A stretch of DNA of 64,000 nt, from NCBI GenBank assembly GCA_017883965.1, contig JAFNKG010000005.1:194-64193 (forward strand), in the 5' to 3' direction. The notes beneath the pieces were generated by a model. That model worked only from the letters and a program-made list of their open reading frames with translations, searched no databases and was not told the DNA's origin. Source of the stretch: Candidatus Methanophagales archaeon (GTDB lineage Archaea; Halobacteriota; Syntropharchaeia; Alkanophagales; Methanospirareceae). The position numbers and the translations under genes are program-made. Shown here in pieces: positions 2,096-60,463 of this stretch (position 1 is the stretch's first letter; each line of letters starts with the position of its first letter).

Positions 2096-2956
2096 ATGAA
2101 TGAGGGGAAAGATTTAGAAGAAATGAAAATTTTAGTCCAGGATAACGGCGAAGTGCCGAAAGAAGACATTGGAGATTTGGGAGAGCAATTTACGGAGGGC
2201 CTATTTAAAGGATTTATAAGGAGGCATGGTACACCAGATTATACCATCACTATGAATAGAAAGGACTTTATCTTAGAGACAACTGTAATAGATAAGATAT
2301 ACCGAAACCCATTAAAAATTTTTTATGATATATGTAAGGAGATAGGGAATAAGAAATTGGCAGCAGACTATGGAATATCAGTAGATCCATCTAACCTTCA
2401 CGAAAAAGATGAAGATACTTTCAAAGAAGAATTAAATGAGATTATAAATATCATCCAAGACAAGCGCCCAAAATATCAAAAATTTTCTATAAAGGGGGTA
2501 ATACGGGATTATACCGTTACATTTGAAAGAAGAAATATAGATTCAACTAAACTTTGTTTGGGTGAAATCTATAGACCAGCATCTAATTTAATCCATACTT
2601 TGATAAAAAAAGGGAAAAACAAACAAATAGAAAAAAGTGATATATTATTGTTGATAATCCTCAACGATTTAGTAGAAAAGAATTACGAGTTACTTGATGA
2701 ATTGTATAAACAAATGGAGGGAGGAACAGAAAATGAGTTTATCACTCAGTATCGTCTTGAAGAAACTGTATGGTTTAACACAAGACTAAAATGTGTTATA
2801 GCCGTTTATCCGGGGGATAAAAATGTGGTCGTCTGTCCTTCTTTATGTCATTATGAGGAGTTTAGTGCGGTTGAATACACAATCTTACGAAAAGTTATAG
2901 AAAATAAGGGATTTAAAGTGGATTCTGTTGTGCATAGCTCGACTATAAATGGATAA
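2096..2956 (+). CDS. Hypothetical protein of 286 aa with no recognisable domain, encoded in AT-rich DNA
   Basis: Long ORF with an upstream purine-rich RBS (ggaggtgaggggga). It lies directly upstream of the AbiE pair. Confidence 0.5.
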   Translation: MNEGKDLEEMKILVQDNGEVPKEDIGDLGEQFTEGLFKGFIRRHGTPDYTITMNRKDFILETTVIDKIYRNPLKIFYDICKEIGNKKLAADYGISVDPSNLHEKDEDTFKEELNEIINIIQDKRPKYQKFSIKGVIRDYTVTFERRNIDSTKLCLGEIYRPASNLIHTLIKKGKNKQIEKSDILLLIILNDLVEKNYELLDELYKQMEGGTENEFITQYRLEETVWFNTRLKCVIAVYPGDKNVVVCPSLCHYEEFSAVEYTILRKVIENKGFKVDSVVHSSTING

Positions 2957-3034
2957 AATAACAAAAAAGAGTGGAAAGTTTTTCTCAACCATATACACCA
3001 ACAATAACAGAATTGTTAAGGATGGTGCATAAAA

Positions 3035-3796
3035 ATGCGAATTACAATGCTTGAAGAACTGGCAAAAAAGGGAAATACTTTCACTATTGAGCATGTTCTA
3101 AGTACGACAAATATTCAAAAAGAGGTGTTATGGGTGATTCTTTCACGATTGGAGAAGAAGGGATGGATTGAGCGAATAGAAAAAGGAAAATATATGATCA
3201 TCCCGCTTGGTGCAGAGAAAGGAAAATATACGTTAAATGAATTTGTTATTGGTTCTTTGCTGGTAAATCCCTATTGTGTTGCTTACTGGAGTGCTCTCAA
3301 TTTTTATGGATTGACCGAGCAGATACCAAATACTGTTTTCATACAGACAACTTCAAGAAAGAAAAAACAGGCAATTGAGGTCTTTGATGTCCGATACAGG
3401 ATTGTTAGGGTAAAAGAAGAGAAGTTTTTTGGAATTAGAAAGGAGTGGATTGAAAACACGCAAATAAACATCACGGATAAAGAAAAAACAATAATAGATT
3501 GCCTTGATAAACCACGGTATTGCGGTGGCGTAATCGAAGTTGCCAAGGCACTAAAATATGGCAGCGAACTGGACAAGAAAAAACTCTTGGAATACGCCCA
3601 AAAGATTGGAAATTCGGGTGTTATTAGAAGATTTGGCTATCTCTGCGATTTCTTAGCCATAGACATTAGCATTCCTGAAATTAAAACGAGGAATTACCTT
3701 TTACTTGACCCCACGATGCCCCATAAAGGTTCAAAAAACGCAAAATGGAGATTGATCATAAATCTGGATGATAAAATACTTGGAGATTTGGAATGA
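3035..3796 (+). CDS. AbiEi-family type IV toxin-antitoxin antitoxin (winged-HTH transcriptional regulator)
   Basis: The N-terminus LEELAKKGNTFTIEHVL...LSRLEKKGWIERIEKGKYMI matches the AbiEi_4 wHTH signature with its G-x-Y motif. It overlaps the downstream AbiEii gene by 4 bp. Confidence 0.65.
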   Translation: MRITMLEELAKKGNTFTIEHVLSTTNIQKEVLWVILSRLEKKGWIERIEKGKYMIIPLGAEKGKYTLNEFVIGSLLVNPYCVAYWSALNFYGLTEQIPNTVFIQTTSRKKKQAIEVFDVRYRIVRVKEEKFFGIRKEWIENTQINITDKEKTIIDCLDKPRYCGGVIEVAKALKYGSELDKKKLLEYAQKIGNSGVIRRFGYLCDFLAIDISIPEIKTRNYLLLDPTMPHKGSKNAKWRLIINLDDKILGDLE

Positions 3797-4584
3797 TACC
3801 TTCAAGAGAGATAAGGGAGAAAGCGAGGGAGTGCGGTGTTCCAGAAACAACGGTTGAAAGAGACTATGCTCAAAATTGGCTGTTAAAATACCTCGCAACT
3901 AAAGATATGCTTCTAAAAGGTGGCACAGGGATAAGAAAAATCTATATTGCAAATTACAGATTCTCTGATGACCTGGACTTCACTTTGCTGGAAGATTTAG
4001 AGAGGAAAGATTTAGAAAACCAAATCAGTAACGCAGTAAAAGGAGCTAAAGAAGAAAGCGGAATAAATTTTGATGATAGTCTTCAGATTGATGAGAATGA
4101 AAATGGATACTTTGTTTCTGTCTATTTTAGGATTATGCGTAACGTTGGGAATCCATTAAAAATCAAACTGGATATTACAAAAACCAAAAAGGAAATAATA
4201 TTGCTTCCGATAGAAAAGAAGTCCATTACTCATCCTTATTCTGATGATTACAAAGCTGAAATAATCGCTTATTCTCTGGAGGAGATTGTCGCTGAAAAGG
4301 CACGTGCTTTATTTGAAAGAACGAGACCAAGGGACCTCTACGACGTAGGGTATCTATGGAATAGGGTCAATAAAGAGAAGGTGTTAGAGGTACTGGAAGA
4401 GAAATGCAGATTTAAGGATGTAACCATCAATATTTCATCCATCATAAATAGAAAAAGCGATTTTGATAATGCGTGGGAGGTTACACTTAGACATCAATTG
4501 AAACAACTCCCGGACTTTAATAAAACATTTGATACAGTTTTAGGAATAATTAAAGGATTTGAAGAAGAGAATGAAACCAACTGA
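3793..4584 (+). CDS. AbiEii/AbiGii-family nucleotidyltransferase toxin
   Basis: The family motif LKGGTGIRKIY...YRFSDDLDFTL is present (consensus GGTaL...RfSeDlDf). It is translationally coupled to AbiEi. Confidence 0.75.
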   Translation: MIPSREIREKARECGVPETTVERDYAQNWLLKYLATKDMLLKGGTGIRKIYIANYRFSDDLDFTLLEDLERKDLENQISNAVKGAKEESGINFDDSLQIDENENGYFVSVYFRIMRNVGNPLKIKLDITKTKKEIILLPIEKKSITHPYSDDYKAEIIAYSLEEIVAEKARALFERTRPRDLYDVGYLWNRVNKEKVLEVLEEKCRFKDVTINISSIINRKSDFDNAWEVTLRHQLKQLPDFNKTFDTVLGIIKGFEEENETN

Positions 4585-7793: not shown

Positions 7794-8432
7794 CTAAAAA
7801 CCTATTTCCTCCATCAACATCCTTATGTGCTCGCTTATTTCATGAAACCTGCGATGTCTTCTCGTAGGATAATAAGAAATCATAAACTTGATGTTTTTAT
7901 CCCCCATCTTCATTTCTAACACTTTTCCCGCTGCCTCGGATAATGTCCTTCCCACTTGCACTCGCATGCCCCATAGATTGCGTAAGATAAAAAAACCACG
8001 TAGCGCTGTCCTTCCTAATAAACAAATACCATCGGGCTTTATATACTCTATTTCTCGTTTAAGGTGGCACTCCGCACAGAGTTTTATAACTTTTCCATGA
8101 GGTGCTGCATTTTGCCCGTTTCTCGCCGAGGGGCATTTCGCTGTCGGCAGAAGATAAAAACCCGCAGCGATAAAATCGCTTACGGAGCTGATTTCATAGC
8201 CCAGGTCAGTTCGTAAGATCTCAAATAAACTATTTCGCAGTCTATCATTTGATTTTTTATTGTAGAAGTAGTAGCGACTGTTCAGAGGCGGTGCTTCGGA
8301 AATAAAAAGAAGCTTTACGTCCTGCGGCTCTGATACAGGAACCCGCTCATCAGGGCATATAACCTCACAATTGTCTTCTTCCTTGCACTTCTTACATTGT
8401 CTTATCTCCTCTTGTAGTTCGTTCCAGTTCAT
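7794..8432 (-). CDS. Uracil-DNA glycosylase superfamily protein (family 4-like, likely Fe-S)
   Basis: The N-terminal Cys cluster CKKCKEEDNCEVIC is present. LFISEAPP resembles motif A (GEaPG). KCPS matches the conserved kCrP. SYYPTRRH resembles motif B (HPS). Confidence 0.45.
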   Translation of the reverse strand: MNWNELQEEIRQCKKCKEEDNCEVICPDERVPVSEPQDVKLLFISEAPPLNSRYYFYNKKSNDRLRNSLFEILRTDLGYEISSVSDFIAAGFYLLPTAKCPSARNGQNAAPHGKVIKLCAECHLKREIEYIKPDGICLLGRTALRGFFILRNLWGMRVQVGRTLSEAAGKVLEMKMGDKNIKFMISYYPTRRHRRFHEISEHIRMLMEEIGF

Positions 8433-8474
8433 ATTGCCATCGTTAGGGCATGCTTTCTTATCTAATTATAACTT

Positions 8475-9257
8475 ATGTCATATACGCCAGATACGAAGGT
8501 GCAAGATAAAATGACATGGAAGGATGAGAAAGAAGAACTCGGAAAAGAGATAACTCGTTTATTATACGAAAAGGGGCTGATTAAAACGTGGTATCGTGAT
8601 AATCCAGACGGTTGGAAGCTCGTTTCTGGCTTATGGAGTCCTTTCTACATACAATTACGACCGCTTCCTTCTTATCCCGAACTGCTCCGAAAGGTGGGAC
8701 ATGCACTTGGAAAAATGCTCAAAGAGGAATGCAAAGCAGTGAATAAAGTAGTGGGCGTAGCAATGACTGGGATACCTATTGCATGTGCAATAACGTTACA
8801 AGAAGGCATACCCTCTTTATGGACGAGAAAAATAGATGTCCGGTCTTTAGACGAATTTAAAAGATACATTCAAAGTTATGGTGAGCATACGCTGGTAGAG
8901 GGCGAGTTTGAGACAGGCGACCGGATAGCGGTTATTGATGACTTAGCGACAAAATTCGATTCCAAACTCGTTGCTATTGAGCAAATAAAAACCGAAGCGA
9001 AGAAGAAGGGTTTAAAGATCGAATGTAAGGATGTGGTTGTTTTACTTGATCGCGAGCAAGGAGCGGCTGAAGTCGCATCTCAGCATGGCATTTCTTTTCA
9101 TTCGCTCATCCCTTTTAAATCGAAAGGAATTGAATGGCTGAAAACTTCGCTATCTGAGATTGAATATGAAGTCATCACTGAATATCTACGGGACGAGAAG
9201 AAATATCAGGATGCGGGGGTTCAAGAGGAGTTATATGAGGTGTGTTTAAAAAGATAA
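8475..9257 (+). CDS. Orotate-phosphoribosyltransferase-like type I PRTase
   Basis: A PRPP-binding loop is present (IAVIDDLATKFDS). The N-terminal region GWKLVSGLWSPFYIQLR resembles the OPRT start (f.lsSGr.SpyY.d.r). At 260 aa it is longer than canonical PyrE. Confidence 0.5.
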   Translation: MSYTPDTKVQDKMTWKDEKEELGKEITRLLYEKGLIKTWYRDNPDGWKLVSGLWSPFYIQLRPLPSYPELLRKVGHALGKMLKEECKAVNKVVGVAMTGIPIACAITLQEGIPSLWTRKIDVRSLDEFKRYIQSYGEHTLVEGEFETGDRIAVIDDLATKFDSKLVAIEQIKTEAKKKGLKIECKDVVVLLDREQGAAEVASQHGISFHSLIPFKSKGIEWLKTSLSEIEYEVITEYLRDEKKYQDAGVQEELYEVCLKR

Positions 9258-9859
9258 TAAACTATATAGTAAATAGGGAAGAAATCATGAAAAAAGGGGG
9301 TTATAAAAGTAAAAGTGATTTTTTGCAGAGGAAACAATTAAAATGGTCTAAAAGGAGCGAAATGCGGGAATTCTTTAAGAATAGATCGAAAATAAAAAGC
9401 GGTGAGATTATCGAAGAAGTAAGAGAAGAAGAAGACAAGGATATATGCAGCGGATTCAATGCATGTTGCAACGGCAAACAATACCAACGCTAACGTGATG
9501 CTGGTTGACGATAGGCATTTTGAGAAGTTTTCTGGGATTGAAGACATGAAGGTATTGAATGTCGCGGATGATGCTTTTCGTGACGTATTTGCAGAAATAA
9601 AGGACAGTTCAAAGAAATTTTGAAGGATGGACGAATATAAAATAAAGATACGGGATGTTGCAAAGGTGGAAAGTCTCCAAGAAGAAGGTTATCAAATCCC
9701 TGTATTGCAAACAAGGGAAGAATTGATAGATTTCTTAATACGAAACAAAGCGTATCCTTACTGTAGCAAAACAGGGAAAATCTTTTTAGGAGATTTAAAA
9801 AAGCGGAAGACGAGAATACGAATTTTGAGGGAATAATAAAGAATGGTGCCGTTAGAAAA

Positions 9860-10426
9860 TTGGGCTTGCAAACAGAAGAAGATTGCAGATTTCTTAGAGA
9901 AAAGATTAATTTCAGGAACTTAGACTCCGCTAGCTTCTCAGAGTTATGCTCGGTTGAAGGAATTGGTATGGCGAAAGCAGCCCAGATAAAAGCAGCTTTG
10001 GAAATAGGCAAACGGTTTTTACGAGAGAAAACCAAAATAGGAAGGAAAATTAAATCGGTTGAAGACGTAGTCAATTATTACAAGCCTTATCTAAGAGATT
10101 TGAAGAAAGAGGTGTTTAAAGTCATGTTGTTGGACGGAAGAAATAAAATAATTAATGATATAACAATTTCAGAAGGAAGTTTGACAGCAAGTGTAGTGCA
10201 TCCACGAGAAGTGATAAAAGAGGCGATAAAGGAATCTGCTGCTGCGCTAATCTTCGTGCATAATCATCCAAGTGGGGAATCACAGCCGAGTGAGGAGGAT
10301 ATTGAGATTACCAATCGGTTGGTTCAGGCTTGCGATTTGGTGGGGATATGGGTTTTGGACCATATTATTATAGGTGGTGATGGTTATATAAGTTTCGTGG
10401 ATGAAGGATTAATGAAGGCGGGATGA
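9860..10426 (+). CDS. radC: RadC-like JAB/MPN domain protein; the N-terminal region appears truncated or frameshifted
   Basis: Contains HNHPSGESQPSEEDIEIT (the JAMM HNHPSG signature), VHPREVIKEAI and VLDHIIIG..YISF. A helix-hairpin-helix motif GIGMAKAAQIKAALEIG is present. The ORF has a TTG start, and its likely N-terminus lies in another frame at 9627-9836. Confidence 0.75.
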   Translation: MGLQTEEDCRFLREKINFRNLDSASFSELCSVEGIGMAKAAQIKAALEIGKRFLREKTKIGRKIKSVEDVVNYYKPYLRDLKKEVFKVMLLDGRNKIINDITISEGSLTASVVHPREVIKEAIKESAAALIFVHNHPSGESQPSEEDIEITNRLVQACDLVGIWVLDHIIIGGDGYISFVDEGLMKAG

Positions 10427-10427
10427 A

Positions 10428-12269
10428 ATGAAAATAAAAAGGGTTAAAATAAAGAATTTTCGATCAATTGGAGAGGAAGGTGTAGATTTTAAACCGAAAG
10501 ATGGATTAAATATAATTATTGGCGAGAATAATGTAGGGAAATCAAATATTCTGAAAGCGTTGAAGCTGTTAGTGGATACGTTAGAAGAAAAACACAAAGA
10601 GATTAGTGAAATTGAATGGTACAATGGAATTACTGAAAGAGAAATTGAAATATCGGTTGAAGTTACTTTAAATGATGAGGAGATTGATAAGGTAATTCAA
10701 AATCTTGTAGGAACCACCCCAATAGATAATAAAACGAAGATAAAACGACTTAAAAAGGATTTTTGTGACAAAGTAGAAATTACCATGTGCCATAAGAAGA
10801 GAGATGACCTCTGGAACTCTATTTTCCTTAAATGGGGCTTTTTGTATTTAGATAGAAGTAATAAAGGTTTTTTAAATCCGGAAGCTAAAAGTTGGAGAAA
10901 TTATTACCCCATTAAATGGAGAGATATACTCTCAGAATATATTAGTGAGAATAATGAAAAATCTATTAATAATGTAATTGAAGAGAGACTTCAGGAAAGG
11001 GATAACGCTATAATCGAGTTTGACCAAAGACACCAAATTCATCCTGTTTTTATAACTATATTTAAAGAAAACTTTAAAGTATTTGAAGATATTCGACAAA
11101 AGCCGATAGGGAAAGGTAGCGATGCTTTAGAATCTTTCGATGGGTTATTAATAGCAGATGTTCTCTTCAATCTGTCTACGGGATATCACCCAAGAAGAAG
11201 GAAATACAAATCAATTCAAGAAAAATTTGGTGCACTGTTCCCTAATTTAGAGTTAGCAGCAGTACAGGACAAAACAAGCAGGAAACCAGACATCCACGTA
11301 ATTAAAAAAACTACAAAATATGAGGGGTCTCTTAATTCTATGGGTACTGGCATTATAGAGATTGTGATATTCTTAACTAACATCATGGCATCTAAAAATA
11401 AAGTGTTTGGAATAGAAGATCCAGAACTTCATCTTCATCCACATGCACAAAGATTGTTATTTGAAATATTACAAAAATATGGGGGCAACAAACAACTATT
11501 CGTAATAACTCATTCTCCCTTGTTTATGGATGTTAAACGAATAGATAGCCTAATTTTAATAAGAGAAGGAAGAGGTGGGACTACGGCAAAGCAGTTACCG
11601 GAAAATCATTTTAGCTCTGAAGAACAATCAAAACTCGAGAAAAATTTAGATGCTGAGAGTAAAGAAATATTTTTCTCCAGAGGAATTTTGCTCGTAGAAG
11701 GTCCTACTGAAAAGGGTGCGCTACCTGTTTTTGCAAAATCTCTCAATTCCGATTTTGATAAAAACGGATTTTCTGTTGTTTGGGTTGGCGGTAAAGATAA
11801 TCTTGAGATATTTATGAAATTGTTAAAAGGATTTGAGATTCCCTATATGGTGACATGTGACAAGGATGCGATTATGGAAATAAGCAAAGGTAAAATGGAG
11901 GGTATCAAAACAAGTTCATTATTCCGTCAACTCCATAATTTAAAAATACTAACTAATGAAGAAGTTGAAAAAATTAAACGATTTGCCAGTCAAATTGAAA
12001 ATAAAAAGAGCTATAAAGAGGATTTATTTGAGGGATTAAAGGAAATTGCTTTAAAATATAATTGCTTTGTTCTTTCCGGTACTTTTGAAGATATTTTAAA
12101 AAAGTCGGGTTATGGAGATTTAATTGAAGAAGCAAAAAATATTGTTGGAAATAGTAACCCAAGAATAGGGAGATATGTTGCTGAAAAAATTGTAGAACAA
12201 GGTGGAGAAATCCCGAAAGAGTTTAAAGAGATAATTTCTAAAGTAAACCAAATCACAGAGGTAGGATAA
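10428..12269 (+). CDS. OLD-family ATP-dependent endonuclease (AAA_15/ABC-type ATPase with a C-terminal TOPRIM)
   Basis: The N-terminus MKIKRVKIKNFRSIGEEGVDF...IIGENNVGKSNILKAL is the Walker A region of the OLD family. The Walker B/D-loop region is IEDPELHLHPHAQRLL. The TOPRIM region reads ILLVEGPTEKGALPVF...VWVGGKDNL...PYMVTCDKD. The start codon lies 1 nt after the radC stop, and the gene is very AT-rich. Confidence 0.85.
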   Translation: MKIKRVKIKNFRSIGEEGVDFKPKDGLNIIIGENNVGKSNILKALKLLVDTLEEKHKEISEIEWYNGITEREIEISVEVTLNDEEIDKVIQNLVGTTPIDNKTKIKRLKKDFCDKVEITMCHKKRDDLWNSIFLKWGFLYLDRSNKGFLNPEAKSWRNYYPIKWRDILSEYISENNEKSINNVIEERLQERDNAIIEFDQRHQIHPVFITIFKENFKVFEDIRQKPIGKGSDALESFDGLLIADVLFNLSTGYHPRRRKYKSIQEKFGALFPNLELAAVQDKTSRKPDIHVIKKTTKYEGSLNSMGTGIIEIVIFLTNIMASKNKVFGIEDPELHLHPHAQRLLFEILQKYGGNKQLFVITHSPLFMDVKRIDSLILIREGRGGTTAKQLPENHFSSEEQSKLEKNLDAESKEIFFSRGILLVEGPTEKGALPVFAKSLNSDFDKNGFSVVWVGGKDNLEIFMKLLKGFEIPYMVTCDKDAIMEISKGKMEGIKTSSLFRQLHNLKILTNEEVEKIKRFASQIENKKSYKEDLFEGLKEIALKYNCFVLSGTFEDILKKSGYGDLIEEAKNIVGNSNPRIGRYVAEKIVEQGGEIPKEFKEIISKVNQITEVG

Positions 12270-12436
12270 AATGCCAAGAGAATACAAACCAACTGAGGAA
12301 GCCACTAAAGAAGGATATGTCCAAGACATAACTGGGGAGTGGCTCCGTGCAACACCGGAGGTTATGGATGCTAAAAAAGTTTTTGCTGATAGATTGGTCA
12401 ATGAATTTGGGTACTCACTAGGACAGATACAAACAA

Positions 12437-12823
12437 TTGAAGGTGTTTAGAGAAGGAGAAATAAGGATTGGGGGTAAAATGAAAAAGGAGAAAAAGAAAA
12501 TTGTTGTGAAAGCAAGAAAAACAATTCGCCTTATCGCTGATAAATTAAAGGAAAGCTACAACCCGGAGAAAATAATCTTATTTGGCTCTTATGCATGGGG
12601 CTTGCCCGATGAAGACAGCGACATTGACATTTTGGTTATTAAGGATACAGAAGAAACACCACATCGCAGAAACGTGAATGCAAGGAAACTTGTTTCATCG
12701 CTTAGAAGGGGCTACGGACTTGATATTTTGGTTATTACACCAGAAGAATTGAAATCAAGGCTTAATATTGGAGATAAATTTCTGGAAGAAATCATTTCAA
12801 GAGGAGAAAGATTATATGGCTAA
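12437..12823 (+). CDS. Minimal nucleotidyltransferase (MNT) antitoxin-type protein
   Basis: The motif ILFGSYAWGLPDEDSDIDILVI matches the polymerase-beta-type GS...D.D motif. Confidence 0.75.
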   Translation: MKVFREGEIRIGGKMKKEKKKIVVKARKTIRLIADKLKESYNPEKIILFGSYAWGLPDEDSDIDILVIKDTEETPHRRNVNARKLVSSLRRGYGLDILVITPEELKSRLNIGDKFLEEIISRGERLYG

Positions 12824-13214
12824 AGAATCTCGCTACTGGAAAGACTGGCTTGATAAAGCGGAAAAGGATTTGCAAAGGGTAGAGAAACGTCTCGAGAATG
12901 GAGATACCGAAGATGCTGCGTTTCACTTACAGCAAGCTGTGGAGAAGTATCTGAAAGGATATCTCTTATCAAAGGGCTGGAAATTTAAACCTATCCATGA
13001 TTTGGAAAGGCTTTTAGATGACGCTGCCCATTTTGACAGCGATTTTGAGAGATTTAGGGAAATTTGCCAAGAGATTACTTCTTATTATACGGAAGAACGT
13101 TATCCTTTCTTCGTTTCCGAGCCAAGCAAGGAAGAAGTTGCGGAAGCTTTGGAGATGGCTAAAGAATTGGTTAAAAGGATTTTTGGGAAGATGAGAAGAG
13201 AGCCTGAAGAATAA
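12816..13214 (+). CDS. HEPN-domain protein, partner of the MNT
   Basis: It overlaps the MNT stop codon. The helical protein contains ...AAFHLQQAVEKYLKGYL... and ERYPFF, the HEPN R-x4-6-H/ERYP region. The start was moved to the internal ATG (MAKESRYW). Confidence 0.6.
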   Translation: MAKESRYWKDWLDKAEKDLQRVEKRLENGDTEDAAFHLQQAVEKYLKGYLLSKGWKFKPIHDLERLLDDAAHFDSDFERFREICQEITSYYTEERYPFFVSEPSKEEVAEALEMAKELVKRIFGKMRREPEE

Positions 13215-13275
13215 ATAGATAAAAGGGGGAGTTTTAAAGACAAGTGGCTACTTATATAGATCATAGCAAAATGAA

Positions 13276-15249
13276 ATGACAAATCTTGACGAATTGGAAG
13301 ATTTGTTGCGCAAAGACGAAAAAGAAAAGGCATACGAACTGATAAAAGAAGATAGAGGCATCACTGCTGAAATTTTAATGGATGAGGGAATCCTTTTTGG
13401 AATTAGCGGAGAATATAGCATTTCGATTTCTTATTTCGAGTTTGGGGAAAAGATTGCCGAAGATGACAAAAAAAAAGAAGTAGCACGGGAAAACGTAGCA
13501 GTAGCTTACAACAAACGAGGGTGTACTTATTATGAATTAACCCAGCATGAAAAAGCGATTGACGACTACAACAAGGCAATTGAATTTAATCCAAATTATG
13601 TCGAGGCTTACTATAACCGTGGAAAAGCTTATCATGAATTGAAACAGCATGAAGAAGCGATTGCCGATTACAACAAGGTAATGGAACTCAATCCATATCT
13701 TGCGGAGGCTTACAACAACCGTGGAGTTGCTTATTGTGAATTAGAACAATATGAAGAAGGGGTTGAAGATTACAACAAGGCAATTGAATTTGATCCAAAT
13801 CATGTCGAGGCTTACTATAACCGTGGAAAATCTTATCATAAATTGAAACAGCATGAAAAGGCGATTGAAGATTTTAACAAGGCGATAGAACTCAATCCAG
13901 AATACGCTGATGCTTATATCAGTCGTGGGCTTGTTTATCGTGAATTATATCAGTATGAAAAGGCAATTGAAGATTTTAACAAGGCAATAGAACTTAATCC
14001 AAAATATACTGGGGCTTACTACAACCGTGGAATTGCTTATCATGAATTAAAGCAGCATGCGAAAGCGATTGAAGATTACAATAAGGCAATAGAACTTAAT
14101 CCAAAAGATGCTGAGGCTTATGCAAATCGTGGAGGGATTCACCTTCAAACAAATAACGATTTAGACACTGCAATTGGCGATTTTAAGACTGCAAGAGACC
14201 TTTTTGAAGGGAAAGATAAAGAGAGGATGCTTGGATTTGTAGAGTGGGCAAAGGCAAGGAAGGAGATGAACATGAAGAATTGGGGTGATTTTAGAGAACG
14301 AATGAACGAAGCAAAAGAAATCTTTGAGAGAATCAACGACCCTTTATCTCTTTCATTTGCCGCTTCTATAAAATTCTCTTATCTGGATGAGGAATTAGAT
14401 AACGCTTTAAACATCCCCGATCCAATAAAAGCATTGGAAGAGATTGAAACGGCATTAAAAAATCTTCCTGAGGTTGAAGGATTGATTGACCCTGAGGCAA
14501 CGATATTTGGTGCAAGAGTTTCATCTTTTGCAATCCTAAGCGAGTTTATTAGCTCCATGAGAAGTATTGACGAGAACACGGATTTAAGAATGGTTAAAGC
14601 CAAACTTGCTGAATTGCTTAAATATTCAAAAAAAGCGGAAGAAGCGTTTGAAGCAGTCGATTTCATCAAAGGGAAGACGGCAATTGTGGATATTCAAGAC
14701 GTTATAAGCTCAGCTAAACAAGAGATAGGAAAAATAGAATGGGCTGCGAACAAAAAGCAAAAGGCTTTGGAGATACTTAGGGGATATTGGTCAAGACTTA
14801 GCTCTGCTATAAAAGTGATGAATGGTATTTCAACTCGCGAAATTGAAAACATTACCTTGGGAAGGGAAATAAGAGAGATGAAAAGTGAATTGCGCGATGG
14901 ATTTACTGAAACAAAAGAGATGATCTCAGAAGGGTTCGAGAAAAGTAGCGAAGAGCATAAAGAGATTTTAGAGAAAATCTACGCGACCGAAAATATTCTG
15001 TTGCAAAAGGATGTAGCGAATGCACGGTATAGAATAGAATTTCCACCATCCCCTTCTCCAACAAAAATTATTGTTGATATCCCAATGGGGAAACTAACAG
15101 AGGAGCAAATAGAAGAAAAAGCAGAAGAGATAGCTTATAAATTTAAATATCTGAAGAGCAAGGTAAAGGAGGAGTTTTTGGAGGCAATTAAGCGTATACC
15201 GGAAATAGGTGATAAGCTTCTGAAGAGGTTGAAGAAGACAAGAGGTTAA
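13276..15249 (+). CDS. TPR-repeat protein: about 8 tandem TPR units followed by a C-terminal domain of about 300 aa with unknown function
   Basis: Repeated 34-aa units AYYNRGKAYHELKQHEEAIADYNKAIELNP are present, and the repeats are also very similar at DNA level. Confidence 0.8.
   Translation: MTNLDELEDLLRKDEKEKAYELIKEDRGITAEILMDEGILFGISGEYSISISYFEFGEKIAEDDKKKEVARENVAVAYNKRGCTYYELTQHEKAIDDYNKAIEFNPNYVEAYYNRGKAYHELKQHEEAIADYNKVMELNPYLAEAYNNRGVAYCELEQYEEGVEDYNKAIEFDPNHVEAYYNRGKSYHKLKQHEKAIEDFNKAIELNPEYADAYISRGLVYRELYQYEKAIEDFNKAIELNPKYTGAYYNRGIAYHELKQHAKAIEDYNKAIELNPKDAEAYANRGGIHLQTNNDLDTAIGDFKTARDLFEGKDKERMLGFVEWAKARKEMNMKNWGDFRERMNEAKEIFERINDPLSLSFAASIKFSYLDEELDNALNIPDPIKALEEIETALKNLPEVEGLIDPEATIFGARVSSFAILSEFISSMRSIDENTDLRMVKAKLAELLKYSKKAEEAFEAVDFIKGKTAIVDIQDVISSAKQEIGKIEWAANKKQKALEILRGYWSRLSSAIKVMNGISTREIENITLGREIREMKSELRDGFTETKEMISEGFEKSSEEHKEILEKIYATENILLQKDVANARYRIEFPPSPSPTKIIVDIPMGKLTEEQIEEKAEEIAYKFKYLKSKVKEEFLEAIKRIPEIGDKLLKRLKKTRG
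13480..14140 (+). repeat. Tandem TPR-encoding DNA repeats of about 102 bp
   Basis: Near-identical strings such as gaggcttactataaccgtggaaaa and caacaaggcaattgaatt recur. Confidence 0.6.
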
Positions 15250-15363
15250 ATAAGGCAGAGTTTGCCTTTTTGGAGATTTTGCAAAACTGCTCTCACTTCG
15301 ATAATAAAAAACTTTGTGAAAAGCACTCTCTTTCTAAGAAGAAACCTGTGTTGAGAAATGATT

Positions 15364-15942
15364 TTATTCAAACTCCTTCAACCCATAACAAAACCTCTTC
15401 AACTTCTCTTTACCCCTTTCGAGCATGAAATTCGCCTTCGATAAGATAAAATCCAGATGCGCTTCACTGCAAAACATCATCCCGTCTTTACCCAGAGGAA
15501 CGTCCATCCTTTCCGTGCTCATTATCTCCACCACCACTCTTTCATTATCCCTTGAAATCGCCTTTATGCTACTGTATTTAAAGCCGGATTCAATCGCTAT
15601 CCTTAACAATCCCTTTGCCTTCTCTAAACCCCTACACGCCACGTGCAATATCGGCGATTGTGATAACAACCATATCTCGCCTTTTTCTGAAGCCTTTAAC
15701 GCCTCTAACACTTCCTCCTTCCTTACTGAACGATGCCACTTGCCAATAAATGTCGCTTCTCGCTTCGCACCTATCTCAGGTAAACGAATCAAGGATATTC
15801 TGCCTGAGCAACTGCTCGTTGTAAAGAATCCTTCGAGGCTGTTCAGCTTCTCTATTATCTCCTCCACTTCTTCGTCTGCTCCCCTTATCCGCAGTTTCTC
15901 AAGCGCCCTCTTCTTCTGCTCTTTAAATTCCGACATCAACAA
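15364..15942 (-). CDS. taw3: tRNA wybutosine-synthesis protein 3 (Taw3/TYW3 family methyltransferase)
   Basis: 192 aa. The TYW3 signature TSSCSGRISLI is present. Confidence 0.6.
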   Translation of the reverse strand: MLMSEFKEQKKRALEKLRIRGADEEVEEIIEKLNSLEGFFTTSSCSGRISLIRLPEIGAKREATFIGKWHRSVRKEEVLEALKASEKGEIWLLSQSPILHVACRGLEKAKGLLRIAIESGFKYSSIKAISRDNERVVVEIMSTERMDVPLGKDGMMFCSEAHLDFILSKANFMLERGKEKLKRFCYGLKEFE

Positions 15943-60034: not shown

Positions 60035-60463
60035 ATGGAGAAAAAGGAAAAAGCCGTAAGGGATTTTGTGGAAAGAATTAGAGGAAAATTCAAGGATAAA
60101 ATAGAAGGGATAATCCTATTCGGAAGTTATGCACGTAGGGAAGCCAAGAAATTCTCTGATATTGATATTTTAATCGTGTTTAAAGAACTGCCAGAGGAAT
60201 GGGAAAAGAGGATAGAAAGTGTCATAGATGAGACTTCTGAAATCGCTTTGGTTTACGGTGTGAAAATATCTCCTCTTTTGCTCTCAAAAGAAGAGCTTTT
60301 GGATAATATTAATTCAGAAGCGCTTTTGTTCCTTGACTTAACCCGAAGCTATCGCATAATTTATGATAACTGTGGTTTTGAAGAAGAAATGGCAAAATTC
60401 AAAGAGAGAATTGCACGGGAATATACATACAATGAGGAGTTTGAGGCATGGATAGAGAAATAG
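60035..60463 (+). CDS. Minimal nucleotidyltransferase (MNT)
   Basis: Contains GIILFGSYARREAKKFSDIDILIVF. Confidence 0.7.
   Translation: MEKKEKAVRDFVERIRGKFKDKIEGIILFGSYARREAKKFSDIDILIVFKELPEEWEKRIESVIDETSEIALVYGVKISPLLLSKEELLDNINSEALLFLDLTRSYRIIYDNCGFEEEMAKFKERIAREYTYNEEFEAWIEK

What the first reader, a model, noticed from the sequence alone, without database searches (positions are those of the whole stretch)
9627..12269. RadC-like JAB protein translationally coupled to an OLD-family ATPase/TOPRIM nuclease: candidate two-gene defense module
The radC-like ORF, with an HNHPSG JAMM motif and an HhH, ends 1 nt before the ATG of a 613-aa OLD-family nuclease (N-terminal ABC-type ATPase, C-terminal TOPRIM). 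Known OLD systems pair the nuclease with a UvrD-like helicase (class 2 OLD and Gabija GajA/GajB), with retrons, or in the PARIS AriA/AriB arrangement. None of those partners is present here. The pair is embedded between an AbiE module and a HEPN/MNT module, and its DNA is visibly more AT-rich than the flanking core genes. I am not aware of a described JAB(RadC)+OLD pairing.
Basis: partly seen in the sequence, partly recalled or inferred. Interest (0 to 1): 0.7.

Follow-up and report, generated by a model that had tools for sequence, protein, structure and literature searches.

The report
OLD nuclease inserted in decayed RadC-led restriction operon
The RadC/OLD gene pair is real, but it is the damaged front end of a longer restriction-modification defence operon of a methane-oxidising archaeon, in which OLD is an inserted stand-alone nuclease and not a dedicated partner of RadC.

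Summary
An intact 613-aa OLD-family nuclease gene (10428-12269) starts 1 nt after a RadC JAB ORF, as reported. However, radC is not one intact ORF from 9627. Compared with intact 334-342-aa orthologues it has a 1-nt deletion in a T run (9783-9787) and an in-frame 201-bp deletion.

About 87%-identical contigs show the full locus: radC, old, a BcgI-like methyltransferase, a specificity subunit, MNT and HEPN. The window keeps only 55 codons of the methyltransferase.

Of 134 informative loci of OLD homologues, one has RadC directly upstream and one has it at the head of the same gene string. The nearest outgroups (37-50% identity) have none. RadC orthologues at 58-90% identity are followed by a DNA methyltransferase or its remnant in 7 of 9 contexts, and by OLD in one.

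OLDs from at least three clades sit in RadC plus restriction-modification operons, in different gene orders.

Verdict: this is not a two-gene RadC-OLD system. OLD is a class-1-like nuclease embedded in a restriction-modification island downstream of radC. The recurrent RadC-methyltransferase adjacency was not found in the literature searched and is the more interesting lead.

The parts
9441..9623 (+). Small ORF (9459-9623, 54 aa). It may be the C-terminal remnant of a PIN/VapC gene upstream of radC.
   Evidence: There is a weak tblastn match to the C-terminus of the L001 PIN protein (E 0.002). The RadC orthologue locus L168 has VapB-PIN directly upstream of radC. Confidence is low.
9627..9787 (+). 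The 5' part of radC (N-terminal extension of the long archaeal form), in frame up to the T5 run at 9783-9787.
   Evidence: It is 88% identical to residues 1-59 of the intact L001 RadC. The alignment shows T5 here against T6 in L001. dN/dS against L004 is 0.08.
9785..10426 (+). The rest of radC in the shifted frame: linker, HhH and JAB domain. The longest ORF starts at TTG 9860 (188 aa). An in-frame 201-bp deletion has its junction at about 9897-9909.
   Evidence: PF04002 matches at 2e-46 and NCBIfam PRK00024 at 209 bits. The deletion was defined against L001 and L004. The same deletion allele exists as an intact 268-aa ORF, P0128. dN/dS is 0.10.
10428..12269 (+). Intact OLD-family nuclease gene (613 aa): N-terminal ABC-type ATPase and C-terminal TOPRIM domain.
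   Evidence: Pfam AAA_15 and OLD-like_TOPRIM match. The best solved relative is the class 1 TsOLD, 6p74, E 3e-23. All invariant columns are kept. Identity to P0001-P0003 is 80-83%. dN/dS is 0.31.
12271..12435 (+). Remnant (first 55 codons) of the HSDR_N_2/N6_Mtase/Eco57I-type restriction-modification methyltransferase gene. It starts 1 nt after the OLD stop. Relative to L001, about 5 kb is missing after it.
   Evidence: It is 87% identical to residues 1-55 of the L001 methyltransferase. blastn jumps from L001 3827 to 8846. The start sequence ATGCCAAGAGAATACAAACCAAC is the same as the methyltransferase start directly after radC in L173.
12437..12823 (+). MNT-type nucleotidyltransferase. In relatives it is the C-terminal part of a fusion with the specificity subunit.
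   Evidence: PF01909 matches at 1e-11. It is 89% identical to the L001 MNT. L173 and P0140 encode Methylase_S and NTP_transf_2 in one product.
12768..13214 (+). HEPN protein, the partner of MNT.
   Evidence: PF05168 matches at 1e-30. It is 76% identical to the HEPN protein at the end of the L173 operon.

Best explanation
The pair is the front stump of a longer, partly decayed operon in a Methanophagales (ANME-1) genome. The full gene order is radC, old, a BcgI-like restriction-modification enzyme (nuclease-like HSDR_N_2 domain fused to an N6-adenine methyltransferase), a specificity subunit, MNT and HEPN.

Shown:
- OLD is a complete single-polypeptide ABC-ATPase/TOPRIM nuclease with no helicase, reverse transcriptase or split partner.
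- Compared with an orthologous locus that lacks it (L173), OLD sits exactly between the radC stop codon and the methyltransferase start codon, with a stop-A-ATG junction on each side.
- The window has lost the restriction-modification genes. Its radC carries a frameshift and an internal deletion.
- The neighbour that RadC keeps across orthologues is a DNA methyltransferase, not OLD.

Inferred:
- OLD acts on its own, as class 1 OLD nucleases do. It is an ATPase-controlled TOPRIM nuclease that cuts or nicks nucleic acid once infection is sensed.
- It serves as a second line of defence embedded in a restriction operon. It may fire when a virus disables restriction, as described for PrrC, PARIS and P2 Old.
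- RadC is either the resident gene at the edge of this defence island or an accessory of the restriction module. It is not an OLD-specific partner.
For: Locus structure:
- Contigs about 87% identical in DNA show the intact locus.
- The radC lesions and the methyltransferase remnant were mapped base by base.
- Junction sequences show the same methyltransferase start after radC in L173 and after old in the window.
- The L173 methyltransferase is 71% identical to the one downstream of OLD in L004, and its HEPN is 76% identical to the window's.

OLD-side census:
- 160 loci were examined, of which 134 are informative upstream. RadC is directly upstream only in L162 and heads the same gene string only in L040.
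- None of 17 viral OLD loci has RadC.
- The nearest outgroups have unrelated neighbours: L003 at 50% identity and L087-L092 at 37-39%.

RadC-side census:
- Nine contexts were examined. Seven have a methyltransferase or its remnant downstream and one has OLD.

Independent captures and precedent:
- RadC-linked OLDs fall in at least three clades that share 34% identity or less, and their nearest relatives lack RadC.
- OLD also occurs embedded in a classical HsdR-HsdM-HsdS operon, L114.
- Defence genes embedded in restriction-modification and Hma systems, including ATPase-TOPRIM proteins, are a published theme (10.1101/2024.01.29.577857).

Class assignment:
- The best solved relative is class 1 TsOLD.
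- No GajB-like sequence occurs in the 64 kb.
Against: - RadC, a methyltransferase, a specificity subunit and OLD recur together in archaea and in an Aminicenantes bacterium (L040). L162 has RadC, OLD and a type III system. This is more than expected if RadC were only a bystander.
- Upstream neighbours of radC differ among orthologues that are 79-90% identical (SecD, FtsJ, VapBC, phosphoribosyltransferase). One Methanophagales cluster holds two nearby accession numbers, possibly from one assembly. This hints that radC travels with the island or is multi-copy.
- radC is under strong purifying selection (dN/dS about 0.1) on both sides of the frameshift. It may therefore still be functional, and the frameshift could be a homopolymer sequencing error.
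- PADLOC scores the OLD protein best with GajA profiles (3e-61) rather than its Old profile (1e-38), so assignment to a class by sequence is ambiguous.
- No activity was measured.
Confidence: 0.58

Rival explanations
1. RadC is a working component of these operons. It would be a DNA- or protein-processing or regulatory factor, translated in a coupled chain with the BcgI-like (or type I/III) restriction-modification enzyme, with or without OLD. The unit would then be RadC plus restriction-modification plus or minus OLD.
For: - radC is followed by the same methyltransferase family, with start M(P/V)(R/K)EYKP, in L173, L179, L180 and the window lineage, at RadC identities of 58-90%.
- The same order (RadC, then an HSDR_N_2/N6_Mtase/Eco57I protein, then a specificity subunit, then OLD) occurs in a bacterium, L040.
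- L162 has RadC, OLD, Mod and Res.
- Seven of nine RadC contexts have a methyltransferase or its remnant downstream.
- The stop-A-ATG junctions carry an upstream GGAGG.
- radC dN/dS is about 0.1.
Against: - The RadC orthologue P0205 (55% identity, 13 contigs) sits between housekeeping genes with no methyltransferase.
- Equally tight spacing links radC to unrelated upstream housekeeping genes: GatD at 1 nt and aconitase at 4 nt. Tight spacing is therefore not evidence of function in these genomes.
- L173 and L181 share the upstream flank, and L173 and L180 share the downstream flank. That is the pattern of a chromosomal hotspot with variable content.
- radC alleles with various internal deletions are common.
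- The sample is small and partly biased.
Confidence: 0.3
2. One reading: RadC and OLD form a dedicated two-gene defence system, in which the JAB protein regulates or cooperates with the nuclease.
For: - The 1-nt spacing is kept in the window, L004 and L006.
- A second direct RadC-then-OLD adjacency occurs in L162.
- No paper describing this pairing was found.
Against: - Only 1 of 134 informative OLD loci outside the window lineage has RadC directly upstream.
- In L179 and L040, methyltransferase and specificity genes lie between RadC and OLD.
- RadC orthologues have other cargo directly downstream: a methyltransferase, an SNF2 helicase or PIN.
- The closest OLD outgroups stand alone.
- The RadC protein has no PADLOC match.
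Confidence: 0.07
3. The OLD gene belongs to a known multi-gene OLD system (Gabija, PARIS or a retron) whose partner lies elsewhere, or it has a non-defence housekeeping role like the archaeal class 5 protein Cran1.
For: - GajA profiles give the best PADLOC scores.
- An archaeal OLD with a cell-cycle role has been described (PMC12796447).
Against: - tblastn with a verified GajB (UvrD-type helicase from L063) finds nothing in the 64 kb.
- In relatives the downstream gene is a methyltransferase.
- There is no Rfam match of any kind.
- The ATPase and TOPRIM domains are fused.
- Cran1-type genes are vertically conserved in Sulfolobales with a membrane-protein partner. This gene is patchily distributed, AT-rich and lies among defence genes.
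Confidence: 0.04

Closest known systems
Class 1 OLD family nucleases (P2 Old, Thermus scotoductus OLD, Vibrio cholerae OLD)
   Same: [quoted passage not shown] The best solved relative is TsOLD, 6p74. Its closest relatives have no conserved partner gene.
   Different: - Class 1 genes are described as stand-alone genes not close to other defence genes (PMC10568477). This one is chained at 1-nt spacing inside a restriction-modification operon.
- It is archaeal.
- At 613 aa it exceeds the 500-600 aa range used for class 1 in PMC12392090.
Defence genes embedded in restriction-modification, BREX or Hma systems (PrrC in type Ic systems; HEC-01/HEC-04 ATPase-TOPRIM; bioRxiv 10.1101/2024.01.29.577857)
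   Same: An ABC-ATPase/TOPRIM protein is nested in a methylation-based system. OLDs of several clades occur in M-S-OLD, R-M-S-OLD or OLD-M orders.
   Different: - Homology to the HEC families could not be tested, because the PADLOC copy here dates from 2023.
- The host operon is a BcgI-like type in an archaeon.
- The operon is headed by radC, which that paper does not mention.
Gabija (GajA/GajB, class 2 OLD)
   Same: The domain architecture is the same, and GajA profiles score best in PADLOC (3e-61).
   Different: There is no UvrD-like GajB in the window or in relatives. By contrast, 37 of 126 distant homologue loci have a downstream ORF of GajB-like size, one of which was verified as UvrD-type.
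RadC/ArdB-type modules at the ends of mobile elements that carry defence islands (PMC12458937); RadC fusions to ArdC and helicases (PMC3239186, PMC5512222)
   Same: A RadC-family gene lies at one edge of a variable block of defence genes, and there is a link to restriction and anti-restriction biology.
   Different: Here RadC is the full-length canonical form plus a conserved N-terminal extension of about 70 aa, not the short JAB-only form. No ArdB, integrase or repeats were seen.
BcgI-like type IIB restriction-modification systems (nuclease-methyltransferase fusion plus separate specificity subunit)
   Same: The gene downstream of OLD in relatives encodes HSDR_N_2, N6_Mtase and Eco57I in one protein, and a Methylase_S gene follows.
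   Different: - The assignment rests on domain content only.
- The specificity subunit is fused to an MNT nucleotidyltransferase in L173 and P0140.
- In the window only 55 codons of the methyltransferase survive.

Membership tests
OLD family nuclease | [quoted passage not shown] | tested here: met
   AAA_15 matches at 2e-27 and OLD-like_TOPRIM at 1e-19. G37-K38, E424, E428, D478 and D480 lie in columns invariant among 35 homologues. PDB matches are 6p74 and the GajA entries.
Class 1 OLD | A single gene without a conserved partner gene. | tested here: inconclusive
   The closest outgroups (L003, L087-L092) have unrelated neighbours. In its own lineage, however, the gene is chained between radC and a methyltransferase gene.
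Gabija (class 2 OLD) | [quoted passage not shown] | tested here: not met
   The downstream gene is a methyltransferase remnant here and a full methyltransferase in L001 and L004. tblastn with a verified GajB finds nothing in the window.
Gabija (class 2 OLD) | An extra helical insert in the TOPRIM domain. | not tested
   No structure of the OLD protein was predicted or compared.
Retron-associated OLD (class 3) | An adjacent reverse transcriptase and a retron non-coding RNA. | tested here: not met
   The window has no Rfam match. The neighbouring genes are radC and the methyltransferase remnant. The NCBIfam retron Eco8 effector model scores 72 bits against a cut-off of 250.
PARIS (class 4, AriA/AriB) | The ATPase and the TOPRIM nuclease are encoded as two separate proteins. 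| tested here: not met
   Both domains lie in one 613-aa ORF. The AriA profile covers only the ATPase half.
Class 5 OLD (Cran1) | Vertical conservation in Sulfolobales, in an operon with a membrane protein. | tested here: not met
   The host is Methanophagales, the distribution is patchy and there is no membrane-protein neighbour. Sequence similarity to Cran1 itself was not tested.
RadC family (canonical) | A JAB domain with the E...HxH...S...D metal-binding motif, preceded by HhH and the UPF0758 N-terminal region. | tested here: inconclusive
   The JAB domain and motif are intact, and NCBIfam PRK00024 is passed. The gene, however, is frameshifted and lacks most of UPF0758_N compared with orthologues. 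The model of the intact orthologue matches RadC 2qlc with a target-normalised TM-score of 0.93.
Embedded ATPase-TOPRIM defences (HEC-01/HEC-04) | Homology to the HEC families and location inside a multi-gene methylation-based system. | not testable with these tools
   The location criterion is met in relatives. HEC profiles are not in the PADLOC v2.0.0 copy used.

The most novel reading that the evidence does not exclude
The long archaeal form of RadC, and some bacterial RadC proteins, may be a functional first gene of methylation-based restriction operons. These operons are BcgI-like, type I, type III or Hma-like, and have repeatedly captured OLD nucleases. If so, the long-enigmatic RadC JAB protein would have a role in controlling or assisting restriction-modification, and RadC plus restriction-modification plus OLD would be an undescribed composite defence system.
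Probability: 0.3. Interest if true: 0.7.

Novelty: new variant of a known kind. Interest (0 to 1): 0.45.

Why it matters
- OLD nucleases are known alone, with helicases, with retrons or split as in PARIS. This locus adds archaeal examples in which OLDs of several clades are inserted gene-precisely into restriction-modification operons. That supports the published idea that second-line defences are embedded in first-line ones.
- The biochemical role of RadC has been unresolved for decades. A repeated, translationally chained RadC-methyltransferase arrangement in ANME-1 archaea and in at least one bacterium gives a concrete, testable context for it.
- For this particular window the practical message is that the locus is a decayed remnant. 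Only OLD and the MNT/HEPN pair look intact.

Tried and rejected
- Gabija, PARIS and retron membership was rejected: there is no GajB, the domains are fused, and there is no Rfam hit.
- No mobile-element signature was seen: the window has no tRNA genes and 8400-15400 has no flanking direct or inverted repeats beyond the TPR repeats. The region was not screened for an integrase.
- A viral origin is not supported. Seventeen viral OLD loci have no RadC (the best is 36% identical), and 80 viral RadC loci have no OLD. A few of the latter have N6_N4 methylases nearby.
- PADLOC has no model matching the RadC protein.
- Pfam at E up to 1 gives nothing credible for the RadC N-terminal extension. A Foldseek PDB search with the full-length model was dominated by the JAB and HhH parts and did not identify the extension.
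- I first dismissed L040 because its RadC lies 6 kb from OLD. Re-inspection showed that the genes in between are the methyltransferase, RhuM, the specificity subunit and DUF2130, all in one same-strand string.
- Literature searches for RadC together with OLD/TOPRIM, and for RadC with restriction-modification or defence islands, found no description of either association.
- Tight spacing was rejected as evidence of a functional link, because radC is equally tightly spaced from unrelated upstream housekeeping genes.
Full report
**1. What is in the window**

ORF listing and profile searches confirm two adjacent genes on the + strand.
- The ORF at 9860-10426 (TTG start, 188 aa) matches the RadC JAB domain (PF04002, E 2e-46). 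It has a weak HhH match and passes the NCBIfam RadC model PRK00024 (209 bits against a cut-off of 180), but only over model positions 39-211.
- Its stop codon TGA is at 10424-10426. One base later an ATG opens a 613-aa ORF (10428-12269) that matches AAA_15 (2e-27) and OLD-like_TOPRIM (1e-19).
- All columns invariant among 35 OLD homologues are intact, including the Walker A GK and the TOPRIM residues E424, E428, D478 and D480.
- GC falls to 0.32-0.34 across the OLD gene, against 0.40-0.45 in the flanks.
- An MNT nucleotidyltransferase (12437-12823) and a HEPN protein (12768-13214) follow.
- The AbiE pair is real (3035-4584) but lies about 5 kb upstream. A starch-synthase-like gene, a UDG-family gene and a phosphoribosyltransferase gene lie in between.

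**2. radC is damaged**

Four metagenomic contigs about 87% identical in DNA (L001, L004, L005, L006) cover this region. Two of them (L001, L004) encode a full intact RadC of 334-342 aa, and L006 a partial one. The intact protein has an N-terminal extension, UPF0758_N, HhH and JAB.

Base-by-base alignment shows two lesions in the window:
- a T5 run at 9783-9787 where L001 has T6, which shifts the frame;
- an in-frame 201-bp deletion (junction about 9897-9909) that removes most of UPF0758_N.

The same 67-residue deletion exists as an intact 268-aa ORF elsewhere (P0128), so the deletion is a real allele. dN/dS against L004 is 0.08-0.10 on both sides of the frameshift. The frameshift is therefore either very recent or a homopolymer sequencing error. 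The JAB motif is intact.

**3. The pair is the front of a longer operon**

In L001/L002 and L004/L005, OLD is followed after exactly 1 nt by a gene encoding HSDR_N_2, N6_Mtase (and, in the full-length L001/L002 gene, Eco57I) in one protein. In L001/L002 this is followed by a 166-aa ORF, a Methylase_S gene, a PIN gene and an MNT gene.

The window keeps only the first 55 codons of that methyltransferase (12271-12435, 87% identical). It then jumps to the MNT gene, a gap of about 5 kb relative to L001.

An orthologous locus, L173 (RadC 69% identical), has the following order:
- radC;
- after 1 nt, the methyltransferase;
- a specificity subunit fused to MNT;
- HEPN;
- no OLD.

Its methyltransferase is 71% identical to the one downstream of OLD in L004, and its HEPN is 76% identical to the window's. 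The methyltransferase start ATGCCAAGAGAATACAAACCAAC follows the radC stop in L173 and the old stop in the window. OLD is therefore a gene-precise insertion between radC and the methyltransferase, with a stop-A-ATG junction on both sides.

**4. Is RadC a conserved neighbour of OLD?**

I collected 160 loci of OLD homologues: 80 from GTDB genomes and 80 from metagenomes, at 23-42% identity. Of these, 134 have at least 700 nt upstream of OLD.

tblastn with the long RadC gave these results:
- RadC lies directly upstream only in L162.
- L040 also has RadC, which turned out to head the same gene string as OLD.
- The nearest outgroups have unrelated neighbours and no RadC or methyltransferase: L003 at 50% identity and L087-L092 at 37-39%.
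- 37 of 126 loci have a downstream ORF of GajB-like size. One was verified as a UvrD-type helicase.
- None of 17 viral OLD loci has RadC.
- None of 80 viral RadC loci has OLD.

**5. What follows RadC?**

The long RadC form is widespread in archaea at 50-90% identity. The lineage here is Methanophagales. Nine contexts were retrieved starting from RadC:

| Locus | RadC identity | Gene order around radC |
|---|---|---|
| L167 | 90% | SecD, RadC, transposase fragment |
| L168-L172 | 79% | VapBC, RadC, SNF2/NOV_C helicase, SMC-like ATPase, SLFN/HATPase protein, DUF1156 methyltransferase |
| L173 | 69% | RadC, methyltransferase, specificity subunit fused to MNT, HEPN |
| L174-L176 | 72% | RadC, remnant of the SNF2 gene start, HsdM |
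| L177/L178 | 64% | RadC, PIN-like gene, HSDR_N_2 remnant, Fic |
| L179 | 58% | GatD, RadC, methyltransferase, specificity subunit, OLD |
| L180 | about 90% | RadC running into the methyltransferase start, HsdM_N remnant, DUF1016, MNT, SIR2 |
| L181 | deletion allele | RadC, N6_Mtase, DUF1016 |
| L199-L205 | 55% | housekeeping genes on both sides, no methyltransferase |

Seven of the nine contexts have a methyltransferase or its remnant downstream. One has OLD.

Two contexts found from the OLD side add to this:
- L040 (an Aminicenantes bacterium) has RadC, an HSDR_N_2/N6_Mtase/Eco57I protein, RhuM, a specificity subunit, DUF2130 and OLD.
- L162 has RadC, OLD, an N6_N4 methylase and a ResIII protein.

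The RadC-linked OLDs belong to at least three clades: the window clade, L179 with L162, and L040. These share 34% identity or less, and their nearest relatives lack RadC. OLD also sits inside a classical HsdR-HsdM-HsdS operon in L114.

**6. Interpretation**

The common denominator of every case with both RadC and OLD is a DNA methyltransferase, accompanied by a specificity subunit or Res gene in the loci long enough to show it. The position of OLD varies: between radC and the methyltransferase, after the specificity subunit, or after DUF2130. OLD is also dispensable, as in L173.

The best-supported reading is that OLD is a self-contained, class-1-like nuclease. Its best solved relative is TsOLD, 6p74, and no GajB, retron or split partner is present. 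It has been captured repeatedly by restriction operons. This matches the published pattern of defences embedded within restriction-modification, BREX and Hma systems, including ATPase-TOPRIM proteins (10.1101/2024.01.29.577857).

By analogy with PrrC, PARIS and P2 Old, which fire when restriction or RecBCD is inhibited, I infer that OLD acts as a back-up nuclease. Single-gene OLDs can defend on their own (PMC12392090). These functional steps are inference. Nothing was measured here.

**7. Status of RadC**

Two readings remain open.

For a bystander at the edge of a defence hotspot:
- L173 and L181 share the upstream flank, and L173 and L180 share the downstream flank.
- P0205 has a purely housekeeping context.
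- radC is just as tightly spaced from unrelated upstream genes (GatD at 1 nt, aconitase at 4 nt).

For a functional link with the restriction module:
- The radC-methyltransferase adjacency persists from 58% to 90% RadC identity.
- It recurs in a bacterium.
- Upstream neighbours of radC vary even among 79-90% identical copies.
- radC is under strong purifying selection.

No paper describing a RadC-OLD or a RadC-restriction operon was found. The known RadC contexts are fusions to HhH, ArdC, primase and DinG, and RadC/ArdB modules of mobile elements.

**8. Structure**

An AlphaFold2 model of the intact orthologue P0122 was made from a 56-sequence alignment (mean pLDDT 83.6).
- Its JAB domain superposes on RadC 2qlc (TM-score normalised to the target 0.93, 47% identity).
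- Its HhH region resembles the XPF/Hef HhH domains.
- A conserved extension at about residues 30-102 forms a helix, a beta-hairpin and helices, with block-mean pLDDT mostly 80-90 (63 around residues 61-70).
- No Pfam or PDB assignment was obtained for that extension.

**9. Verdict**

- The two-gene RadC-OLD module is not supported.
- The locus is a decayed RadC-headed restriction operon with an embedded OLD nuclease, a new variant of a known kind.
- The recurrent RadC-methyltransferase(-OLD) arrangement is the lead worth a systematic survey.

Noticed in passing
L001:1494-1843 (between the radC 3' end and old): An insertion of about 350 bp is bounded by inverted repeats GTCCCCCCTACA / TGTAGGGGGGAC, with an apparent TAATGA target duplication. 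It looks like a miniature transposable element. It replaces the last RadC residues in this relative. The window and L004 lack it.
   Followed up: partly
L173:10670-12460; protein P0140; window 12437-12823: The restriction specificity subunit (Methylase_S) is fused in one product to an MNT-type nucleotidyltransferase, followed by HEPN. This suggests that the MNT/HEPN pair is integrated into the restriction operon. P0140 is a chimera of the RadC N-terminus, the end of the specificity subunit and MNT, and it records another large deletion at this locus.
   Followed up: partly
Proteins P0121-P0240 (alignment A2); window 9627-9787 is the start of it: Archaeal long-form RadC carries a conserved N-terminal module of about 70 aa (FLVxNxAYPxCSKxGKIFF ... 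LKTEEDCxxIRE). It has no Pfam family. It is predicted with good confidence to form a helix, a beta-hairpin and helices.
   Followed up: partly
Proteins P0128, P0172, P0241-P0270: Methanophagales radC alleles within 90%-identity clusters range from 61 to 344 aa (some are partial calls), and two examined alleles (P0128, P0172) carry different internal in-frame deletions. Two members of one cluster (a 337-aa and a partial 257-aa protein) have nearby accession numbers, which may mean one assembly holds two copies.
   Followed up: no
L168-L172 and L174: A RadC 79% identical to the query RadC (L004) overlaps the start of a 1123-aa SNF2/ResIII/NOV_C helicase gene. An SMC-like ATPase, an SLFN_AlbA_2/HATPase_c_4 protein and a DUF1156 methyltransferase follow, an Hma-like system. 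L174 keeps only a remnant of that helicase start after radC.
   Followed up: partly
window 2096-4584: A second AT-rich block (GC 0.33-0.37) holds a 286-aa ORF with no Pfam match, followed by an AbiEi/AbiEii pair with overlapping start and stop codons.
   Followed up: partly
window 13276-15249: A 657-aa TPR protein has six tandem DNA repeats with a 102-nt period (13402-14211), directly after the HEPN gene.
   Followed up: no
L114:2936-11347: A classical type I operon (HsdR, HsdM, HsdS) is followed, with overlapping starts, by an OLD homologue and then a second AAA_15/DUF3696 ATPase. L113 shows the same methyltransferase-(S-sized ORF)-OLD order, and the closely related OLDs in L110, L115 and L010 (83-94% identical) were not examined for it.
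   Followed up: partly
window 60035-60298: There is a weak second match to the MNT nucleotidyltransferase (33% identity over 88 aa, E 7e-5), so another MNT-like gene may lie near the far end of the window.
   Followed up: no
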